Below, piece after piece: positions 1,927-10,748 of a stretch of DNA of 64,000 nt. Source of the DNA: Actinomycetes bacterium (GTDB lineage: Bacteria; Actinomycetota; Coriobacteriia; WRKU01; WQUG01); NCBI GenBank assembly GCA_031272275.1, contig JAISUC010000012.1:2052-66051 (forward strand). The letters run 5' to 3'. A model generated the notes under the pieces. The model made no database searches. It had not been told where the DNA came from and saw nothing but the letters and a program-made list of their open reading frames with translations. A program made the position numbers and the translations under genes. Positions within the stretch are counted from its first letter, which is position 1. Each line of letters begins with the position of its first letter.

Positions 1927-1972
1927 CTCACCTGCTGCAACCCATCTACCTGCACATATAACGCCAAAACAA

Positions 1973-2049
1973 CCGCCCGCGGCAAACCATGCGGGCAGGC
2001 GGCATCACCTCGCGAACGTCATTGCGAAGCGGCGTAGCCGCCGCAGAGC
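1973..2049 (+). repeat. REP-like composite element, family 2 copy (CCCGCGGCAAACC ... CATCACCTCGCGAACGTCATTGCGAAG + GC hairpin)
   Basis: Near-identical to the units at 31324-31433 and 50551-50595. Sits directly 3' of tRNA-Ser. Confidence 0.5.
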
Positions 2050-2108
2050 CATCCGAGACGGAGCGCTTTTGCGTTTTGTGCGCATCCCGCGCCACAAAAC
2101 GGCGCCGT

Positions 2109-2264
2109 CTAGTACACGGCATTGAGGCCGGGGATCTCTATCGCGGCCAGCTTGTCGGCGGTGTACGGCTTGCCTGCGGGAATCCCCGCCTTTTCCATGA
2201 TACGGTAGAGCACGCGGTTAGTAATACCGTAATCTGCACATATAGATTTGAGGGTGGTTGCCAT
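2109..2264 (-). CDS. Small (51 aa) putative helix-turn-helix DNA-binding protein (excisionase/AlpA-like?)
   Basis: MATTLKSICADYGITNRVLYRIMEKAGIPAGK... has an HTH-like pattern. It is below the 60-aa ORF cutoff. Next to the tRNA at the edge of the island. Weak RBS. Confidence 0.3.
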   Translation of the reverse strand: MATTLKSICADYGITNRVLYRIMEKAGIPAGKPYTADKLAAIEIPGLNAVY

Positions 2265-2360
2265 TTCTCGAAAAAGTGCTTATTTTCGCATTTCCCGCAT
2301 TATATATAGTGAGTGTAAAGTGGCCGAGGTACATTTCGCGCGCAATTTTTACTCCCCCCC

Positions 2361-2808
2361 CTATGGTTTCAACCGCGAAAACATCCAGCGCGCGGCTGCG
2401 CGTTGCGCGGGCGTACCGTGAATCATTTTCTTAGCGGCCTCGAGCGTCGGCTGCGTCGGTTCCTTTTCGCGCGGTTTACCCGCACGCTTGCGTAGCTTTC
2501 CCGTGAACACGGGCTCCTCGAGCGGCTTGCTGTTCGCGGTTCGGTAGTAGGATTGCAGCACGCCGTCCATCCACGGCGCTTTCAGGATATGCGCACGCAC
2601 GCCCGCTTGGTCTAGTTTGAAATCAACCTTTGGCAATGTAATCCCTGTTTCTGTTTGGAAACAGCCTATTGAGATTCGTTTGGAATCTGCGCTCTATGGC
2701 GCCATCGGGGTCGTCTAGCCGCTCCACCTTGCGCACTCCGATATTGCGACCGTCCCAACGGCTTTCGGTAAATGGTTCACGTATACTTTCGTTCGGTTTG
2801 CTATACAT
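2361..2808 (-). pseudogene. Two overlapping small ORFs (61 aa and 91 aa) in different frames, possibly one frameshifted hypothetical gene
   Basis: ORFs 2623-2808 and 2361-2636 overlap by 14 nt on the same strand. No recognisable family. Confidence 0.25.
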
Positions 2809-3802
2809 GCGGCAGTATCATCCTTTGCGTTAGAATCAGTTGCCAGTTTTCAACCCGTGCGTTCAATATCAGCATACTACAACCGTGCGCACAAAGCACC
2901 TCCTGCTCCTTTGTGCCCTCCGCGCTAATGCTCGTAACGTCATAAGCGGGCATACCACTGGGCGCTGCAATCTCACTCTTAACCACCGCCTTTTCAGAAG
3001 TGACCACGATATCGCTGACAGGAGCTCCTGTCGATACATATGAGGTAGAAACGAAACCCGCCGAGGTGATTATTTCGCCGCTCATTCCGTCCAGTATTTC
3101 TTGAGCGGCACCTGACTTTGCCATCCCAAGGCGAATCAATTCCCTTGTTTCATCCTCGTCAAGTCCAAAGTGCCACAGGCTCCCGTCGCCACGTGTTAGT
3201 AGCGTGTCGTGCGGTAGTCCACCGCCGCCCTTTAACGCATTCTGTATCAGTGTTGTATCCCTTGCTACGTCAGCAGCGTTTGACCCTTTATACAGTTTGC
3301 GCAGCAGAAGATTTATGTCTGTTGATTTGTCTGTGTATTCCGTAATAGCGTCACGGCTTGCCTGTGGCAGCGAAGACAGGTATCGCGACGCCATCCTCGC
3401 GTCCCGCGCTGTCCAGCCCGTTGCATGCAGCGGCTCGAACTCGTACGGCGTCCGCTCGTACAGGTCGTTCAGCATCGCGTTGCATTTCCGCATGCGTCCC
3501 TCGAACTCATCCACCTTAACGCCGTTGTCAATCTTGCCGAACCGACAGTGACAGTGCGAATGTGTCGCATAGTTTATATCGTGATAGTCGGTGCTCCGTC
3601 CCGCCTGCGCGAGGCACCACTCGCATGCTCCTGGGTTCGGGTCGCGGTAGTAGTAGACGCTCATCGCCCCGCGCCAGGTCGATGCCCCCGTCACGAAATG
3701 CACGTGACGGGGACTGCAGTCCGGCGGCTCACGCCGCCGGTGGATTGCCACGGCGACTGCGTCGCCTCGCAATGACGAAATGTAGTAGTACCCGCCCCGC
3801 AT
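2801..3802 (-). CDS. ADP-ribosyltransferase (C3/VIP2-type exoenzyme fold) fused to the C-terminal zinc motif of a phage Mu-F/SPP1 gp7 head-morphogenesis protein; N-terminally truncated remnant
   Basis: The ART domain carries its catalytic motifs: the R of TLLTRGDG, STS in GFVSTSYVS, ExE in KEQEVL, and the N-terminal YTDKSTDINLLLRKLY motif. The Mu-F type CEWC...HSHCHCR zinc motif is present with only about 90 aa upstream of it. Confidence 0.6.
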   Translation of the reverse strand: MRGGYYYISSLRGDAVAVAIHRRREPPDCSPRHVHFVTGASTWRGAMSVYYYRDPNPGACEWCLAQAGRSTDYHDINYATHSHCHCRFGKIDNGVKVDEFEGRMRKCNAMLNDLYERTPYEFEPLHATGWTARDARMASRYLSSLPQASRDAITEYTDKSTDINLLLRKLYKGSNAADVARDTTLIQNALKGGGGLPHDTLLTRGDGSLWHFGLDEDETRELIRLGMAKSGAAQEILDGMSGEIITSAGFVSTSYVSTGAPVSDIVVTSEKAVVKSEIAAPSGMPAYDVTSISAEGTKEQEVLCAHGCSMLILNARVENWQLILTQRMILPHV

Positions 3803-3838
3803 AATTGCCGCGCCCGCCTTCAGCGGGCTCGCAACGAC
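3803..3838 (-). repeat. REP-like family 2 copy (GTCGTTGCGAGCCCGCTGAAGGCGGGCGCGGCAATT) abutting and supplying the ATG of the truncated ART ORF
   Basis: Reverse complement of 3803-3838. Same ATTGCGAG / hairpin / GCGGCAAT architecture as the other copies. Confidence 0.45.
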
Positions 3839-3900
3839 GGGACAGAATAGTATCCTCCGTTCACGCGAGAGCGGAACGGCCCTTTATGCCCCTGGGCAGT

Positions 3901-9769: not shown

Positions 9770-9788
9770 AGGCGCGACCCGGCCCGGC

Positions 9789-9800
9789 GGGACGCACTCC
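9789..9800 (+). repeat. Degenerate family 1 copy (GGGACGCACTCC-TC) directly after the AAA+ stop
   Basis: 12 of 15 positions match. Confidence 0.4.
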
Positions 9801-9814
9801 TCAAAGGTATGTCC

Positions 9815-9870
9815 GTTAAGGTAATGCTAAGAGCGCCTTAAGTGGTCGCTAAGATCCCCTTAAGGTTCCC
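9815..9870. promoter_or_regulatory. Five phased CTTAAG/CTAAG motifs (about 11-12 bp period) in the AT-rich region upstream of higB; candidate antitoxin operator
   Basis: TTAAGG, CTAAG, CTTAAG, CTAAG, CTTAAGG read directly. CTTAAG is a palindrome. Confidence 0.35.
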
Positions 9871-10009
9871 CGTGTAAATTGCTCTTCCACGGAAATTGTG
9901 ACCACTCGAAATGACGGGTGACGAGACGGGAGAGTGATGCTATGCCGGAAATGCAGGAAATGCTCGGCGTTATCGAGTTGCAATCTGATAGCGTATCGGA
10001 TATCATATT

Positions 10010-10372
10010 ATGAGGAAGCTGAGTTTCGATTGGGTGAAACGAACGGATGGGGCCAGCGAGTTCATGGACTTTATGGATGGATTGCCGGTTAAGGATCGGG
10101 CAAAGCTCGCTGCACTGATCACTGCTGTTGAGGAGCACGGCTTGGAGATAGCCAAACGAATGAAGTGGGTGAAGAAACTGGGAGATGGCTTCTTCGAAAT
10201 ACGATCGCGGCAGGCAAGTGATATACAACGAGTGATATATTTTCATGGCTCAGGTAAACAGTGCATTATTACCCACGGTTTCACCAAAAAGAGCGATGTA
10301 ATACCGAAAACGCAGATCGAACGTGCAAAGAACCTTCGTGCAAAATGGCTGGAAGAAAGGGGGCAGAGGTGA
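10010..10372 (+). CDS. higB: HigB-like toxin (phage Gp49/RelE-ParE superfamily)
   Basis: ...YFHGSGKQCIITHGFTKKSDVIPKTQIERAKNL matches the Gp49-like HigB C-terminal pattern. Followed by an overlapping XRE antitoxin gene. Confidence 0.75.
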   Translation: MRKLSFDWVKRTDGASEFMDFMDGLPVKDRAKLAALITAVEEHGLEIAKRMKWVKKLGDGFFEIRSRQASDIQRVIYFHGSGKQCIITHGFTKKSDVIPKTQIERAKNLRAKWLEERGQR

Positions 10373-10650
10373 GTGCGATAAAGGAAATGGTTGAGCAGCA
10401 ATGTGCATCAAGCCCGGAGTTTGCGACTGAGTATCAGCGTGAACGGGAAAGATTGGATGCGGCGGTCGCGTTGATGGAGCTGCGGCGCGAAGAGGGAATG
10501 ACACAACGTCAGTTGGCGGCAGCAACCGGAAAGACGCAGGCGACGATAGCCCGTATCGAAAACGGGAGTATGAACCCCTCGGTTAAGCTGTTGAAAGAAA
10601 TCGCTGTTGCTCTGGACCGCCGTCTGGAGTTTCGGTTCGTGAAGAGCTGA
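10369..10650 (+). CDS. higA: HigA-like XRE-family HTH antitoxin
   Basis: GTG start overlaps the higB stop (GTGA). The protein has an XRE-type HTH (MTQRQLAAATGKTQATIARIENG). Confidence 0.7.
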   Translation: MSAIKEMVEQQCASSPEFATEYQRERERLDAAVALMELRREEGMTQRQLAAATGKTQATIARIENGSMNPSVKLLKEIAVALDRRLEFRFVKS

Positions 10651-10748
10651 TGCGGATAGTTCAGTCCGGGCGGGTGCTCCCCCGACCGGATATGTATTCG
10701 GGTATGTGCCCGCGCATCAACATGCGTCATGCTGAAAATGCGAGCGGA

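What the first reader, a model, noticed from the sequence alone, without database searches (positions are those of the whole stretch)
1927..10700. Degraded integrative-element/defence-type island at the 3' flank of tRNA-Ser
Directly after tRNA-Ser(GCT) lies a run of genes typical of mobile or defence islands rather than core metabolism. They are a small HTH gene, fragmented small ORFs, a phage Mu-F/ADP-ribosyltransferase remnant, RhuM, a Cas4-like/DUF2779 nuclease, a DIP1984-like small protein, an AAA+ ATPase of unknown function and a HigBA toxin-antitoxin pair. They are mostly on the minus strand reading toward the tRNA, with REP-like insertions. No integrase or recombinase is present, so the element looks old and decayed. 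tRNA-Ser is a classic integration hotspot. Any novel function in this window is most likely to sit here.
Basis: partly seen in the sequence, partly recalled or inferred. Interest (0 to 1): 0.7.

Follow-up and report, generated by a model that had tools for sequence, protein, structure and literature searches.

The report
Mosaic defence-gene island beside tRNA-Ser
The 8.8 kb after tRNA-Ser is a patchwork of foreign "conflict" genes: a leftover phage toxin, a known anti-phage gene, a toxin-antitoxin pair, and a nuclease/ATPase pair that recurs in other bacteria's defence islands. It is an ordinary kind of island carrying one promising uncharacterised module.

Summary
Island genes have lower third-position GC than 22 comparison genes (0.64 vs 0.75, p = 3e-5). 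The neighbouring metA gene is core-like. A cobalamin riboswitch at 10804-11024 fixes the right border near 10.75 kb.

"Decayed integrative element" is only partly supported. There is no att repeat. No close relative exists in public data, so the empty-site test cannot be run. Only one gene is visibly truncated: a MuF-type phage head toxin that has lost its MuF part. It keeps an ADP-ribosyltransferase domain with all three catalytic motifs and two small downstream ORFs. All other genes are intact.

I read the region as four independent modules:
- a prophage vestige;
- RhuM/PDC-S05, a family with one experimentally validated anti-phage member;
- DUF2779 nuclease, DIP1984 and a tandem AAA+ ATPase;
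- HigBA.

The new result concerns the ATPase, which has a degenerate N-terminal AAA+ domain and an active SpoVK/CbbX-like one. It belongs to an undescribed family of about 400 clusters. In 82 metagenome loci its homologues sit next to WYL regulators (28 loci), DUF2779 nucleases (6 loci) and known defence genes. The island itself is ordinary. This module is a credible new defence candidate.

The parts
1834..1926 (+). tRNA-Ser(GCT); left border of the island
   Evidence: ARAGORN; Rfam tRNA, 56.5 bits.
2109..2264 (-).
   Evidence: Listed as an ORF and called as a gene in the independent Logan contig L170. No hit in NCBIfam, PHROGs or Pfam at E = 10.
2361..2636 (-). 91-aa ORF that overlaps the 61-aa ORF by 14 nt; second candidate immunity or accessory gene of the ART operon
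   Evidence: No family hit.
2623..2808 (-). 61-aa ORF that overlaps the ART stop codon by 8 nt; candidate immunity protein
   Evidence: [quoted passage not shown] The immunity role is an inference.
2801..3475 (-). ADP-ribosyltransferase toxin domain (224-aa version as annotated by NCBI), C3/C2-like, with R, STS and ExE motifs present
   Evidence: ADPrib_exo_Tox, 7.8e-16. NCBI protein LBS17_03125, 224 aa. Weak alignments to the C3-like toxins 4xsg and 5urp place LTRGD on the catalytic R and FVSTS on the STS motif. The EQE motif is visible in the translation.
3521..3661 (-). Vestige of the C-terminal end of a MuF-like minor head protein domain (CxxC...HCHC), in frame with the ART
   Evidence: Pfam VG15 PF25310, 1.3e-5, 25.9 bits against a cut-off of 26. 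Profile positions 142-193 of 212 are matched. The first 140 profile positions are missing.
3901..4794 (-). RhuM-family protein; PADLOC candidate single-gene defence system PDC-S05
   Evidence: PDLC04879, 3.9e-117, residues 14-292 on profile positions 3-283 of 285. Pfam RhuM, 5e-21. The Logan gene call is 291 aa, 3901-4776.
4888..4970 (.). Inverted pair of the genome-wide 14-nt motif, located between the RhuM and DUF2779 modules
   Evidence: The pair forms a 16-bp stem, but the folding z-score is only -0.98.
5007..6515 (-). DUF2779 protein: an N-terminal Cas4-like PD-(D/E)XK nuclease with a Cys cluster, plus a C-terminal RNase-H-like exonuclease domain
   Evidence: PF11074, 1.8e-45. Cas4: PF01930 at 19.6 bits (below its cut-off) and PADLOC Cas4 at 1.8e-6. 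D...EVK and C-x5-C-x5-C are seen in the sequence. Homologues at 43-50% identity lie beside AAA homologues in 6 metagenome loci and 1 viral locus.
6847..7305 (-). DIP1984/DUF6847 family protein, divergent from the ATPase gene
   Evidence: NF038048, 3.9e-42; PF20935, 3.8e-40. PDB 3kdq, 5e-27. A 38%-identical homologue lies directly upstream of an AAA homologue in L087.
7589..9769 (+). 726-aa tandem AAA+ ATPase: ferredoxin-like N-domain (1-205), degenerate AAA+ domain (about 215-445, GHPVHY in place of Walker A), and an active SpoVK/CbbX/EccA-like AAA+ domain (447-707)
10010..10650 (+). HigBA-type toxin-antitoxin pair: Gp49/RelE-fold toxin first (10010-10372), Xre-HTH antitoxin second (10369-10650), with a 4-nt overlap
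   Evidence: PF05973, 4.3e-19; PF01381, 2.3e-16. Logan gene calls.
10749..10762 (+). Last copy of the 14-nt motif, at the right edge of the island
10804..11024 (+). Cobalamin riboswitch heading the adjacent core operon; it marks the right border and is not part of the island
   Evidence: RF00174, 115.2 bits, E = 8e-29, full-length match. A promoter-like site lies at 10766-10794.

Best explanation
The stretch from about 1927 to 10750 is a mosaic accessory island of horizontally acquired 'conflict' genes. It lies between tRNA-Ser(GCT) and a B12-riboswitch-controlled transporter operon. The host is a poorly sampled actinobacterial MAG whose nearest metA relatives are termite-gut Coriobacteriia MAGs. 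The island is built from four modules that work independently.

1. **Prophage vestige (2109-3802).** This is the 3' part of a MuF-type phage head toxin gene. The MuF domain is lost apart from about 47 residues. The C3/C2-like ADP-ribosyltransferase domain keeps its R/STS/ExE motifs. Two small overlapping ORFs follow it and are the likely immunity genes. The pair would then behave as an orphan toxin-immunity cassette.
2. **RhuM-family protein of the PDC-S05 type (3901-4794).** This is a single-gene anti-phage system.
3. **Nuclease/ATPase module (5007-9769).** It holds a DUF2779 double nuclease (Cas4-like plus DEDD-like exonuclease), a DIP1984 protein and a tandem AAA+ ATPase. In the ATPase only the C-terminal SpoVK/CbbX-like domain can bind and hydrolyse ATP. 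I infer that the ATPase forms a hexameric remodeller that senses or unfolds a phage or plasmid component. I infer that the nuclease is the effector that degrades invading DNA ends. In other bacteria a BrxR/CapW-type WYL repressor usually sits beside the ATPase gene; that regulator is absent here.
4. **HigBA toxin-antitoxin pair (10010-10650).**

**Shown:** gene identities, composition, borders, absence of recombinase and att, and the recurrent gene neighbourhoods.
**Inferred:** the immunity role of the small ORFs, a functional link between the ATPase and the nuclease, and any anti-phage activity in this host.
For: - **Gene identities:**
- **Foreign composition limited to the island:**
- **Right border:** fixed by the riboswitch.
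- **Assembly:** independent assembler contigs reproduce both junctions at 100% identity. L170 equals window 1-3711 and L082 equals 3683-15134.
- **PDC-S05:** one representative reduced plating of T7 and T5 about 1000-fold and T4 about 10-fold (PMC12881386).
- **Modularity:** across 86 homologue loci tested by tblastn, and 82 in which all neighbouring ORFs were clustered, WYL regulators occur in 27-28 loci. They are mostly on the same strand and within 500 nt. DUF2779 at 43-50% identity occurs in 6 loci representing 5 independent lineages, whose ATPases are only 41-53% identical to each other, plus 1 viral contig. RhuM, HigBA and the ART are never found there.
- **Defence-island setting:** the 150 genes within two positions of the homologues include GajB (2e-99), DRT reverse transcriptases (7e-96), SspH (1e-59), mad8 and IetA.
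Against: - No island-free relative could be found, so insertion is inferred and not observed.
- Lower GC3 could partly reflect low expression.
- DUF2779 accompanies only about 7% of ATPase homologues, and DIP1984 accompanies only 1 of about 95. The three genes may simply be frequent co-residents of defence islands and not one system.
- DUF2779 is quasi-essential in a minimal Mycoplasma (PMC13621843), which hints at a housekeeping role in some lineages.
- The PDC-S05 member that was tested experimentally may carry a different C-terminal domain.
- The genome-wide 14-nt motif inside the island shows that the island is not a recent arrival.
Confidence: 0.68

Rival explanations
1. A single integrative element (a prophage or integrative island) inserted into the 3' end of tRNA-Ser, carried all of these genes as cargo, and has since lost its integrase, att sites and structural genes.
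For: - The island starts directly at the tRNA 3' end.
- The gene cluster nearest the tRNA includes a truncated MuF head-toxin gene, a hallmark of temperate phages (PMC5576092).
- GC3 is uniformly low across the whole stretch.
- ATPase homologues occur on 5-6 IMG/VR viral contigs.
Against: - There is no integrase fragment in any frame of any gap.
- No repeat of the tRNA 3' end longer than 8 nt exists within 18 kb.
- Modules 2-4 never co-occur in the roughly 95 homologue loci.
- Host-type 14-nt motifs lie at the RhuM/DUF2779 and ATPase/HigB junctions and at the right border. This fits stepwise assembly or long residence.
Confidence: 0.2
2. The region is native, vertically inherited DNA. Its lower GC3 reflects weak expression or relaxed selection and not horizontal transfer.
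For: - The host's own short intergenic motif is present four to five times inside the region.
- Overall GC of neighbouring metA is equally low, 0.55-0.57.
Against: - metA's GC3 is core-like at 0.72, while all nine island genes fall at 0.54-0.71.
- The content is typical mobile conflict genes.
- The nearest homologues, at about 30-50% identity, come from gut metagenomes and from MAGs labelled Bacteroidota or Lachnospiraceae. The closest metA homologues are Coriobacteriia.
Confidence: 0.06
3. The arrangement is an assembly or binning artefact of a metagenome-assembled genome, joining DNA from different organisms.
For: - The source is a MAG.
- The two Logan contigs meet only through a 29-nt overlap at 3683-3711, inside the island.
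Against: - Both island-core junctions lie inside single contigs from a different assembler, at 100% identity.
- The contig break coincides with a palindrome, GTCACGAAATGCACGTGAC. That is a trivial cause of de Bruijn graph breaks.
- The host-specific motif occurs on both sides of the break.
Confidence: 0.03

Closest known systems
Defence islands and tRNA-adjacent genomic islands
   Same: - Foreign composition.
- Clustering of a defence gene (RhuM/PDC-S05), a toxin-antitoxin pair, nuclease and ATPase genes, and a prophage vestige next to a tRNA gene.
   Different: - No integrase, no att repeats and no mobility genes.
- The empty site cannot be shown.
- The island carries the host's own short intergenic repeat.
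MuF polymorphic toxins of temperate phages (Jamet et al. 2017, PMC5576092)
   Same: - A C-terminal ADP-ribosyltransferase toxin domain.
- Small ORFs immediately downstream.
- A CxxC...HCHC end of the MuF domain just upstream, in frame.
   Different: - About 140 of the 212 positions of the MuF/VG15 profile are missing.
- No portal, terminase or other packaging genes are nearby.
- The gene abuts RhuM instead.
PDC-S05 (RhuM-domain single-gene defence candidate in PADLOC; one member validated in PMC12881386)
   Same: Full-length match to model PDLC04879 (3.9e-117), and a single-gene arrangement.
   Different: - Only the N-terminal 69 of 252 positions of Pfam RhuM are matched.
- The C-terminal 150 residues match no Pfam family.
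- It is not known whether the tested protein has the same C-terminal domain.
SpoVK/CbbX/EccA-type AAA+ ATPases, including the tandem SpoVK-like ATPases linked to CoCoNuT conflict systems (PMC11090510)
   Same: - The C-terminal AAA+ and AAA_lid_6 domains match SpoVK and CbbX at E of about 1e-73 to 1e-74.
- It is a tandem arrangement in which only the C-terminal domain keeps Walker A and B. The same is described for the CoCoNuT-associated proteins.
   Different: - Scores lie far below the equivalog cut-offs (250 vs 423 bits for SpoVK; 246 vs 459 for CbbX).
- The N-domain is different (ferredoxin-like).
- There are no LRR or beta-barrel C-terminal fusions and no McrBC or VWA partners in the window.
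- The usual partner elsewhere is a WYL regulator.
DUF2779 / solo-Cas4 nucleases (PMC13621843, PMC3985635)
   Same: The same two-domain build: a Cas4-like PD-(D/E)XK domain with a Cys cluster, plus an RNase-H-like 3'-5' exonuclease.
   Different: - No CRISPR-Cas genes are present.
- A recurrent neighbourhood with this ATPase family is not mentioned in any of the 8 library papers that cite DUF2779, DUF6847 or DIP1984 (I read 2 of them).
HigBA type II toxin-antitoxin systems
   Same: - Toxin-first gene order.
- A Gp49/RelE-fold toxin and an Xre-type HTH antitoxin.
- A 4-nt overlap between the two genes.
   Different: The NCBIfam RelE/ParE model is matched only weakly (0.0033). Activity is untested.

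Membership tests
tRNA-targeting integrative element (prophage / integrative island) | Site-specific recombinase (tyrosine or serine integrase) at one end | tested here: not met
   No recombinase family hits any ORF. No Pfam hit in the six-frame translation of all gaps.
tRNA-targeting integrative element (prophage / integrative island) | Direct repeat of the tRNA 3' end (attL/attR) bounding the element | tested here: not met
   The 25-nt tRNA end with up to 3 mismatches occurs only in the tRNA itself. There are no informative 10-12-mers. blastn-short finds only chance 8-mers.
tRNA-targeting integrative element (prophage / integrative island) | Empty site (tRNA directly next to the right-flank genes) in related genomes | not testable with these tools
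   Core proteins are singleton 90% clusters. The flank protein is an orphan. The best metA loci are at most 77% identical and show no synteny.
Horizontally acquired genomic island | Composition or codon usage differs from the core genes | tested here: met
   GC3 is 0.64 for island genes and 0.75 for comparison genes, Mann-Whitney p = 2.7e-5. metA is core-like.
Defence island | Clustering of recognised defence systems | tested here: met
   PDC-S05 at 3.9e-117, with HigBA next to it. The other genes score only weakly against PADLOC (Cas4 1.8e-6, IetA 2.2e-8).
PDC-S05 (RhuM) | Full-length match to a PDC-S05 model as a stand-alone gene | tested here: met
   PDLC04879, residues 14-292 on profile positions 3-283 of 285.
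PDC-S05 (RhuM) | Confers phage resistance | not testable with these tools
   Shown only for one other member, in E. coli B (PMC12881386).
MuF polymorphic toxin | N-terminal MuF (phage head morphogenesis) domain | tested here: not met
   Only profile positions 142-193 of 212 of VG15 are matched, at 25.9 bits against a cut-off of 26. The rest is absent, so this is a truncated vestige.
MuF polymorphic toxin | C-terminal toxin domain followed by a small ORF | tested here: met
   ADPrib_exo_Tox at 7.8e-16. R/STS/ExE motifs. The 61-aa and 91-aa ORFs overlap one another downstream.
MuF polymorphic toxin | Located in the DNA-packaging module of a (pro)phage | tested here: not met
   No portal, terminase or capsid families occur nearby. 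tblastn of the ART against 50,697 phage records finds nothing.
SpoVK / CbbX / EccA equivalogs | Score above the curated equivalog cut-off | tested here: not met
   250 vs 423 bits, 246 vs 459 bits and 197 vs 467 bits. The protein shares the AAA+ subfamily domain but is not one of these proteins.
Classical AAA+ ATPase | Walker A (GxxGxGKT), Walker B (hhhhDE) and a lid domain | tested here: met
   GNPGTAKT and VLFIDEA are present in residues 447-707. PF00004 at 2.4e-16 and AAA_lid_6 at 4e-14. The N-terminal AAA-like domain lacks both motifs.
Gao_Iet (IetA-IetS) | IetA-type ATPase with an adjacent IetS protease | tested here: not met
   IetA models are matched only at 2e-8 over the generic AAA core. 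No protease gene is present.
DUF2779 / solo-Cas4 | DUF2779 domain plus an N-terminal Cas4-like nuclease with D/E-K catalytic residues and a Cys cluster | tested here: met
   PF11074 at 1.8e-45. The Cas4 matches are weak (19.6 bits against a cut-off of 22.7; PADLOC 1.8e-6). The motifs are visible in the sequence.
HigBA type II TA | RelE-fold toxin upstream of an HTH antitoxin, translationally coupled | tested here: met
   PF05973 at 4.3e-19, PF01381 at 2.3e-16, and a 4-nt overlap.
BrxR/CapW-type WYL-regulated defence locus | wHTH-WYL-WCX regulator adjacent to the defence genes | tested here: not met
   No WYL gene is in the window. WYL is present next to ATPase homologues in 28 of 82 loci.

The most novel reading that the evidence does not exclude
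The tandem (pseudo-AAA + SpoVK-like AAA) ATPase at 7589-9769 founds an undescribed anti-phage defence family. Members are usually placed under a BrxR/CapW-type WYL repressor. In a subset, including this window, the ATPase works together with a DUF2779 Cas4-like/DEDD double nuclease, and perhaps with DIP1984, as its effector.
Probability: 0.3. Interest if true: 0.6.

Novelty: new member of a known kind. Interest (0 to 1): 0.4.

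Why it matters
As an island it is ordinary. Accessory conflict genes next to a tRNA are common, and this example adds one from a barely sampled actinobacterial lineage (probably gut-associated).

Its value lies in two leads:
- **An uncharacterised ATPase family.** It has about 400 clusters at 50% identity and no Pfam model for its first 445 residues. It repeatedly sits beside WYL regulators, DUF2779 nucleases and bona fide defence genes (Gabija, DRT, Ssp, MADS). 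That gives a concrete, testable candidate for a new defence system. It also gives a first functional context for DUF2779 'solo-Cas4' nucleases and, more weakly, for DIP1984 proteins.
- **An orphaned phage toxin domain.** The island shows a MuF phage toxin domain surviving, with its catalytic motifs, after its phage was lost.

Tried and rejected
**Searches for relatives that led nowhere**
- Empty-site comparison: a genome-contig scan with metA gave at best 77% identity. It found no tRNA-Ser(GCT) and no synteny.
- A metagenome scan and a 5.8-billion-protein search with the flanking 530-aa protein found only the protein itself.
- Exact look-ups returned only two Logan contigs identical to the window.

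**att remnants**
- None found.

**ART protein**
- tblastn against phages found nothing.
- PDB sequence search gave nothing below 0.01.
- The homologue search returned only the protein itself.

**RhuM C-terminal domain**
- The sequence HDRFLVID...GAS looked like a degenerate PLD (HxK) motif. No Pfam hit appears even at E = 10, so I dropped the idea.

**ATPase N-domain**

**DIP1984 as an obligate partner of the ATPase**
- It is present in only 1 of about 95 homologue loci, so the link is weak.

**The 14-nt motif**
- As an RBS or terminator: its distances to gene starts and ends are inconsistent.
- The hairpin formed by the inverted pair is not more stable than shuffled sequence.

**Logan contig break at 3683-3711 as evidence of strain variation**
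- The break coincides with a palindrome and is probably trivial.

**Rfam**
- Rfam reports nothing inside the island itself at E <= 1.

Full report
**1. What is there**

ARAGORN finds tRNA-Ser(GCT) at 1834-1926 (+). metA lies just upstream of it, divergently, at 730-1650/1707 (-) (MetA_acetyl 2e-141).

| Coordinates | Strand | Identity | Evidence |
|---|---|---|---|
| 2801-3802 | - | ADP-ribosyltransferase ORF | ADPrib_exo_Tox 7.8e-16, residues 139-317; MuF-like VG15 match on residues 48-94 only, 25.9 bits vs cut-off 26 |
| 3901-4794 | - | RhuM | Pfam RhuM 5e-21; PADLOC PDC-S05 model PDLC04879 full length, 3.9e-117 |
| 5007-6515 | - | DUF2779 / Cas4-like | DUF2779 1.8e-45; Cas4-like 1.8e-6 in PADLOC |
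| 6847-7305 | - | DIP1984 / DUF6847 | 3.9e-42; PDB 3kdq 5e-27 |
| 7589-9769 | + | AAA+ ATPase, 726 aa | see section 5 |
| 10010-10372 | + | Gp49/HigB toxin | PF05973 4.3e-19 |
| 10369-10650 | + | HTH_3 antitoxin | PF01381 2.3e-16 |

Three small ORFs of 51, 91 and 61 aa lie at 2109-2264, 2361-2636 and 2623-2808. An independent gene caller also calls them. They match no family even at E = 10. The 'HTH' label for the first is therefore unverified.

No recombinase family hits any ORF. A six-frame translation of all eight intergenic gaps gives no Pfam hit. The absence of an integrase is real, down to the level of fragments.

**2. Borders and composition**

- Bulk GC is 0.53-0.58 from position 1 to about 10.5 kb, then jumps to 0.64-0.67. 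That stretch includes metA, so bulk GC does not define the left border.
- Third-position GC does define it. metA (0.72) and the gene to its left (0.74) resemble the other comparison genes. Those 22 genes average 0.75. The nine island genes range from 0.54 to 0.71, with mean 0.64 (Mann-Whitney p = 2.7e-5).
- The right border is set by a full-length cobalamin riboswitch at 10804-11024 (115 bits, E = 8e-29). A promoter-like site precedes it at 10766-10794.
- The riboswitch heads an operon for an orphan secreted protein, a DUF4430 protein and an ECF transporter.
- The island is therefore about 1927-10750.

**3. Is it an integrative element at the tRNA?**

- No copy of the tRNA 3' end exists anywhere in the window. 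No 10-12-mer repeat is informative. blastn-short returns only chance 8-mers.
- The decisive comparison with island-free relatives cannot be made.
  - The source is a MAG labelled 'Actinomycetes bacterium' (locus tag LBS17, 171,779-bp contig).
  - SerRS, metA, ClcA and others are singleton 90%-identity clusters among 15 billion proteins.
  - The right-flank 530-aa protein has no homologue beyond one hit at 27% identity.
  - A metagenome scan with that protein found nothing.
  - The nearest metA loci are termite-gut Coriobacteriia MAGs at no more than 77% identity. They share no synteny with the window.
- Assembly artefact is unlikely.
  - Two Logan contigs from SRR14710912 match the window at 100% identity.
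  - L170 covers window 1-3711, which includes the left junction. L082 covers 3683-15134, which includes the right junction.
  - Their 29-nt overlap coincides with a palindrome, so the break is probably trivial.

**4. The prophage vestige**

- The ART ORF carries, in frame and upstream of the toxin domain, a CxxC...HCHC stretch. It matches only the last quarter of the VG15 model.
- From my own recollection, not tested here, VG15 is the MuF-like minor-capsid protein of mycobacteriophage L5-type phages. NCBI annotates only the 224-aa toxin part.
- MuF toxins are reported exclusively from temperate phages and prophages. About 14% carry ARTs, and 89% are followed by a small putative immunity ORF (PMC5576092).
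- Here the toxin domain keeps the R (LTRGD), STS (FVSTSY) and ExE (EQE) motifs. Weak alignments to the C3-like toxins 4xsg and 5urp place R and STS correctly.
- The 61-aa ORF overlaps the ART stop codon, and the 91-aa ORF overlaps the 61-aa ORF.
- This is the one clearly truncated gene. It is the best evidence that a temperate phage once sat here.
- tblastn of the ART against 50,697 phage records found nothing, so the donor is unknown.

**5. The ATPase and its neighbours**

Architecture:
- Residues 447-707 are a SpoVK/CbbX/EccA-type AAA+ domain. Scores are 1.8e-74 and 4.5e-73, but far below the equivalog cut-offs.
- The first 445 residues match no Pfam family.
- In that second fold, the invariant GHPVHY replaces Walker A, and no DE Walker B is present.
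- Tandem SpoVK-like ATPases in which only the C-terminal domain is active have been described next to CoCoNuT conflict systems (PMC11090510).

Family size:
- The N-terminal 450 residues define a family of 414 clusters at 50% identity (E <= 1e-3). Of these, 262 reach 1e-10. Most members are 660-690 aa.

Neighbourhoods:
- I fetched 80 metagenome loci and 13 viral-contig loci, in addition to 7 contexts obtained by look-up. The sample names I recognise point to termite, human, camel and rumen gut.
- The ATPase's neighbours were scored twice: by tblastn with the window's proteins (86 loci) and by clustering all ORFs (82 loci, 384 kb of flank).
- A wHTH-WYL-WCX regulator is adjacent in 27-28 loci. 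It is nearly always on the same strand and usually within 500 nt.
- A DUF2779 protein 43-50% identical to the window's is adjacent in 6 loci, in four different arrangements.
  - Their ATPases are only 41-53% identical to each other, apart from one 92% pair. That gives 5 independent lineages, plus the window and one viral contig.
  - If a genome carries at most one DUF2779 gene per about 3 Mb (my assumption, not measured here), about 0.1 would be expected in 384 kb.
- A DIP1984 homologue (38% identity) lies directly upstream of the ATPase in one locus, L087, and nowhere else.
- RhuM, HigBA and the ART never occur in these loci.
- A PADLOC scan of 150 genes within two positions of the homologues found:
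  - WYL: 17;
  - SspH: 3 (1e-59);
  - mad8: 3;
  - IetA: 3;
  - GajB: 2 (2e-99);
  - DRT reverse transcriptases: 2 (7e-96).
- WYL regulators of this type co-localise with many defence systems and sense ssDNA (PMC9122601, PMC11662680; abstracts seen).
- The ATPase itself scores only weakly against PADLOC (IetA 2e-8). It is therefore not a catalogued system as of that 2023 release.

**6. The other modules**

- PDC-S05: one RhuM-domain representative has been shown to reduce plating of T7 and T5 about 1000-fold and T4 about 10-fold (PMC12881386).
  - The window's protein matches one PDC-S05 model end to end.
  - Its C-terminal half matches no Pfam family, so its effector chemistry is unknown.
- DUF2779 proteins combine a Cas4-like PD-(D/E)XK nuclease with an RNase-H-like 3'-5' exonuclease (PMC13621843, PMC3985635).
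  - They are uncharacterised.
  - The D...EVK catalytic residues and the Cys cluster are visible in the window's protein.
- HigBA has the canonical toxin-first order with a 4-nt overlap.

**7. The 'REP-like' sequences**

- GGGACGYRCTCCCC occurs 17 times in the window against 0.09 expected. Copies are mostly intergenic.
- There is no conserved flank around the motif. None of the 83 other loci held at the time contains it.
- Inside the island, copies lie between RhuM and DUF2779 (an inverted pair), between DIP1984 and the ATPase, between the ATPase and HigB, and at the right edge.
- The four intergenic forward-strand island copies carry the 'GCA' variant. The inverted partner at 4889 and a copy inside the RhuM coding sequence differ. 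Eight of the ten copies outside the island carry 'GTA'; 50808 and 62135 carry 'GCA'.
- This points to long residence or stepwise assembly. It argues against a single recent insertion.

**8. Verdict**

The stretch is a foreign, defence-type island containing a phage vestige.
- It is better described as a mosaic of mostly intact, independent modules than as one decayed integrative element. Integration at the tRNA cannot be demonstrated.
- As a kind of feature it is ordinary: a new member of a known kind.
- The lead worth following is the DUF2779 / DIP1984 / tandem-AAA+ module. Its recurrent association with WYL regulators and known defence genes makes it a reasonable candidate for an undescribed defence system. 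I put that at about 0.3 probability.

Noticed in passing
window 10804-11024 (+), with genes to 16914: A full-length cobalamin riboswitch (115 bits) heads an operon. The operon encodes an orphan 530-aa secreted protein with no homologue above 27% identity in 5.8 billion proteins, a DUF4430 protein, and ECF T, A-A and S components. This is probably a B12 or corrinoid uptake system with a lineage-specific surface binder.
   Followed up: partly
window-wide, e.g. 4957, 7433, 9789, 10749, 14482, 17408, 22404, 25119, 39746, 45268, 50808, 53616, 62135: A 14-nt motif, GGGACGYRCTCCCC, occurs 17 times against 0.09 expected. Copies are mostly intergenic and have no conserved flanks. The 'GCA' variant is found in the island and at 50808 and 62135. 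The 'GTA' variant is found at eight of the ten sites outside the island. The motif is absent from all 83 other loci held at the time. Its function is unknown; it may be a REP-like element or a regulator binding site.
   Followed up: partly
window 4141-4159 and 4888-4906: One motif copy lies inside the RhuM coding sequence. It forms a 19-nt, 95%-complementary inverted repeat with the copy upstream of the RhuM start, so the pair brackets the promoter and the N-terminal two-thirds of the gene. It could be chance. No recombinase is nearby.
   Followed up: no
window 3683-3711: The two Logan contigs covering the region overlap by only 29 nt, at the palindrome GTCACGAAATGCACGTGAC inside the non-homologous 5' part of the ART ORF. 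This is probably a trivial de Bruijn graph break. It is also the boundary between the prophage vestige and RhuM.
   Followed up: partly
loci L083-L169 (metagenome contigs with ATPase homologues): Several other gene families recur near the ATPase homologues:
- an unannotated family of about 270 aa lies directly downstream of the ATPase in 10-12 loci, with no Pfam hit;
- a small family of about 117 aa with a YYPRGRV motif;
- MoxR plus DUF2201/VWA pairs;
- SNF2 helicases;
- soluble FtsH-like proteins.
   Followed up: partly
window 1-572 (+): A partial gene at the left edge encodes a zincin-like protein (HExxH; weak Peptidase_M43 match at 3.9e-4) with core-like GC3 of 0.74. An 85-95% inverted repeat at 567-731 lies between it and metA.
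   Followed up: no
window 53712-56643: A second stretch of lower GC holds an ammonium transporter (6e-115) and the urease accessory genes ureE and ureF. These are metabolic genes, not island-like. ORFs I had greedily called on the minus strand at 56.6-59.8 kb gave no family hits and may be shadows of plus-strand genes.
   Followed up: partly
whole window: The organism has no close sequenced relative. SerRS, metA, ClcA, an ABC permease and an ECF S component are each singleton clusters at 90% identity among 15 billion proteins.
   Followed up: yes
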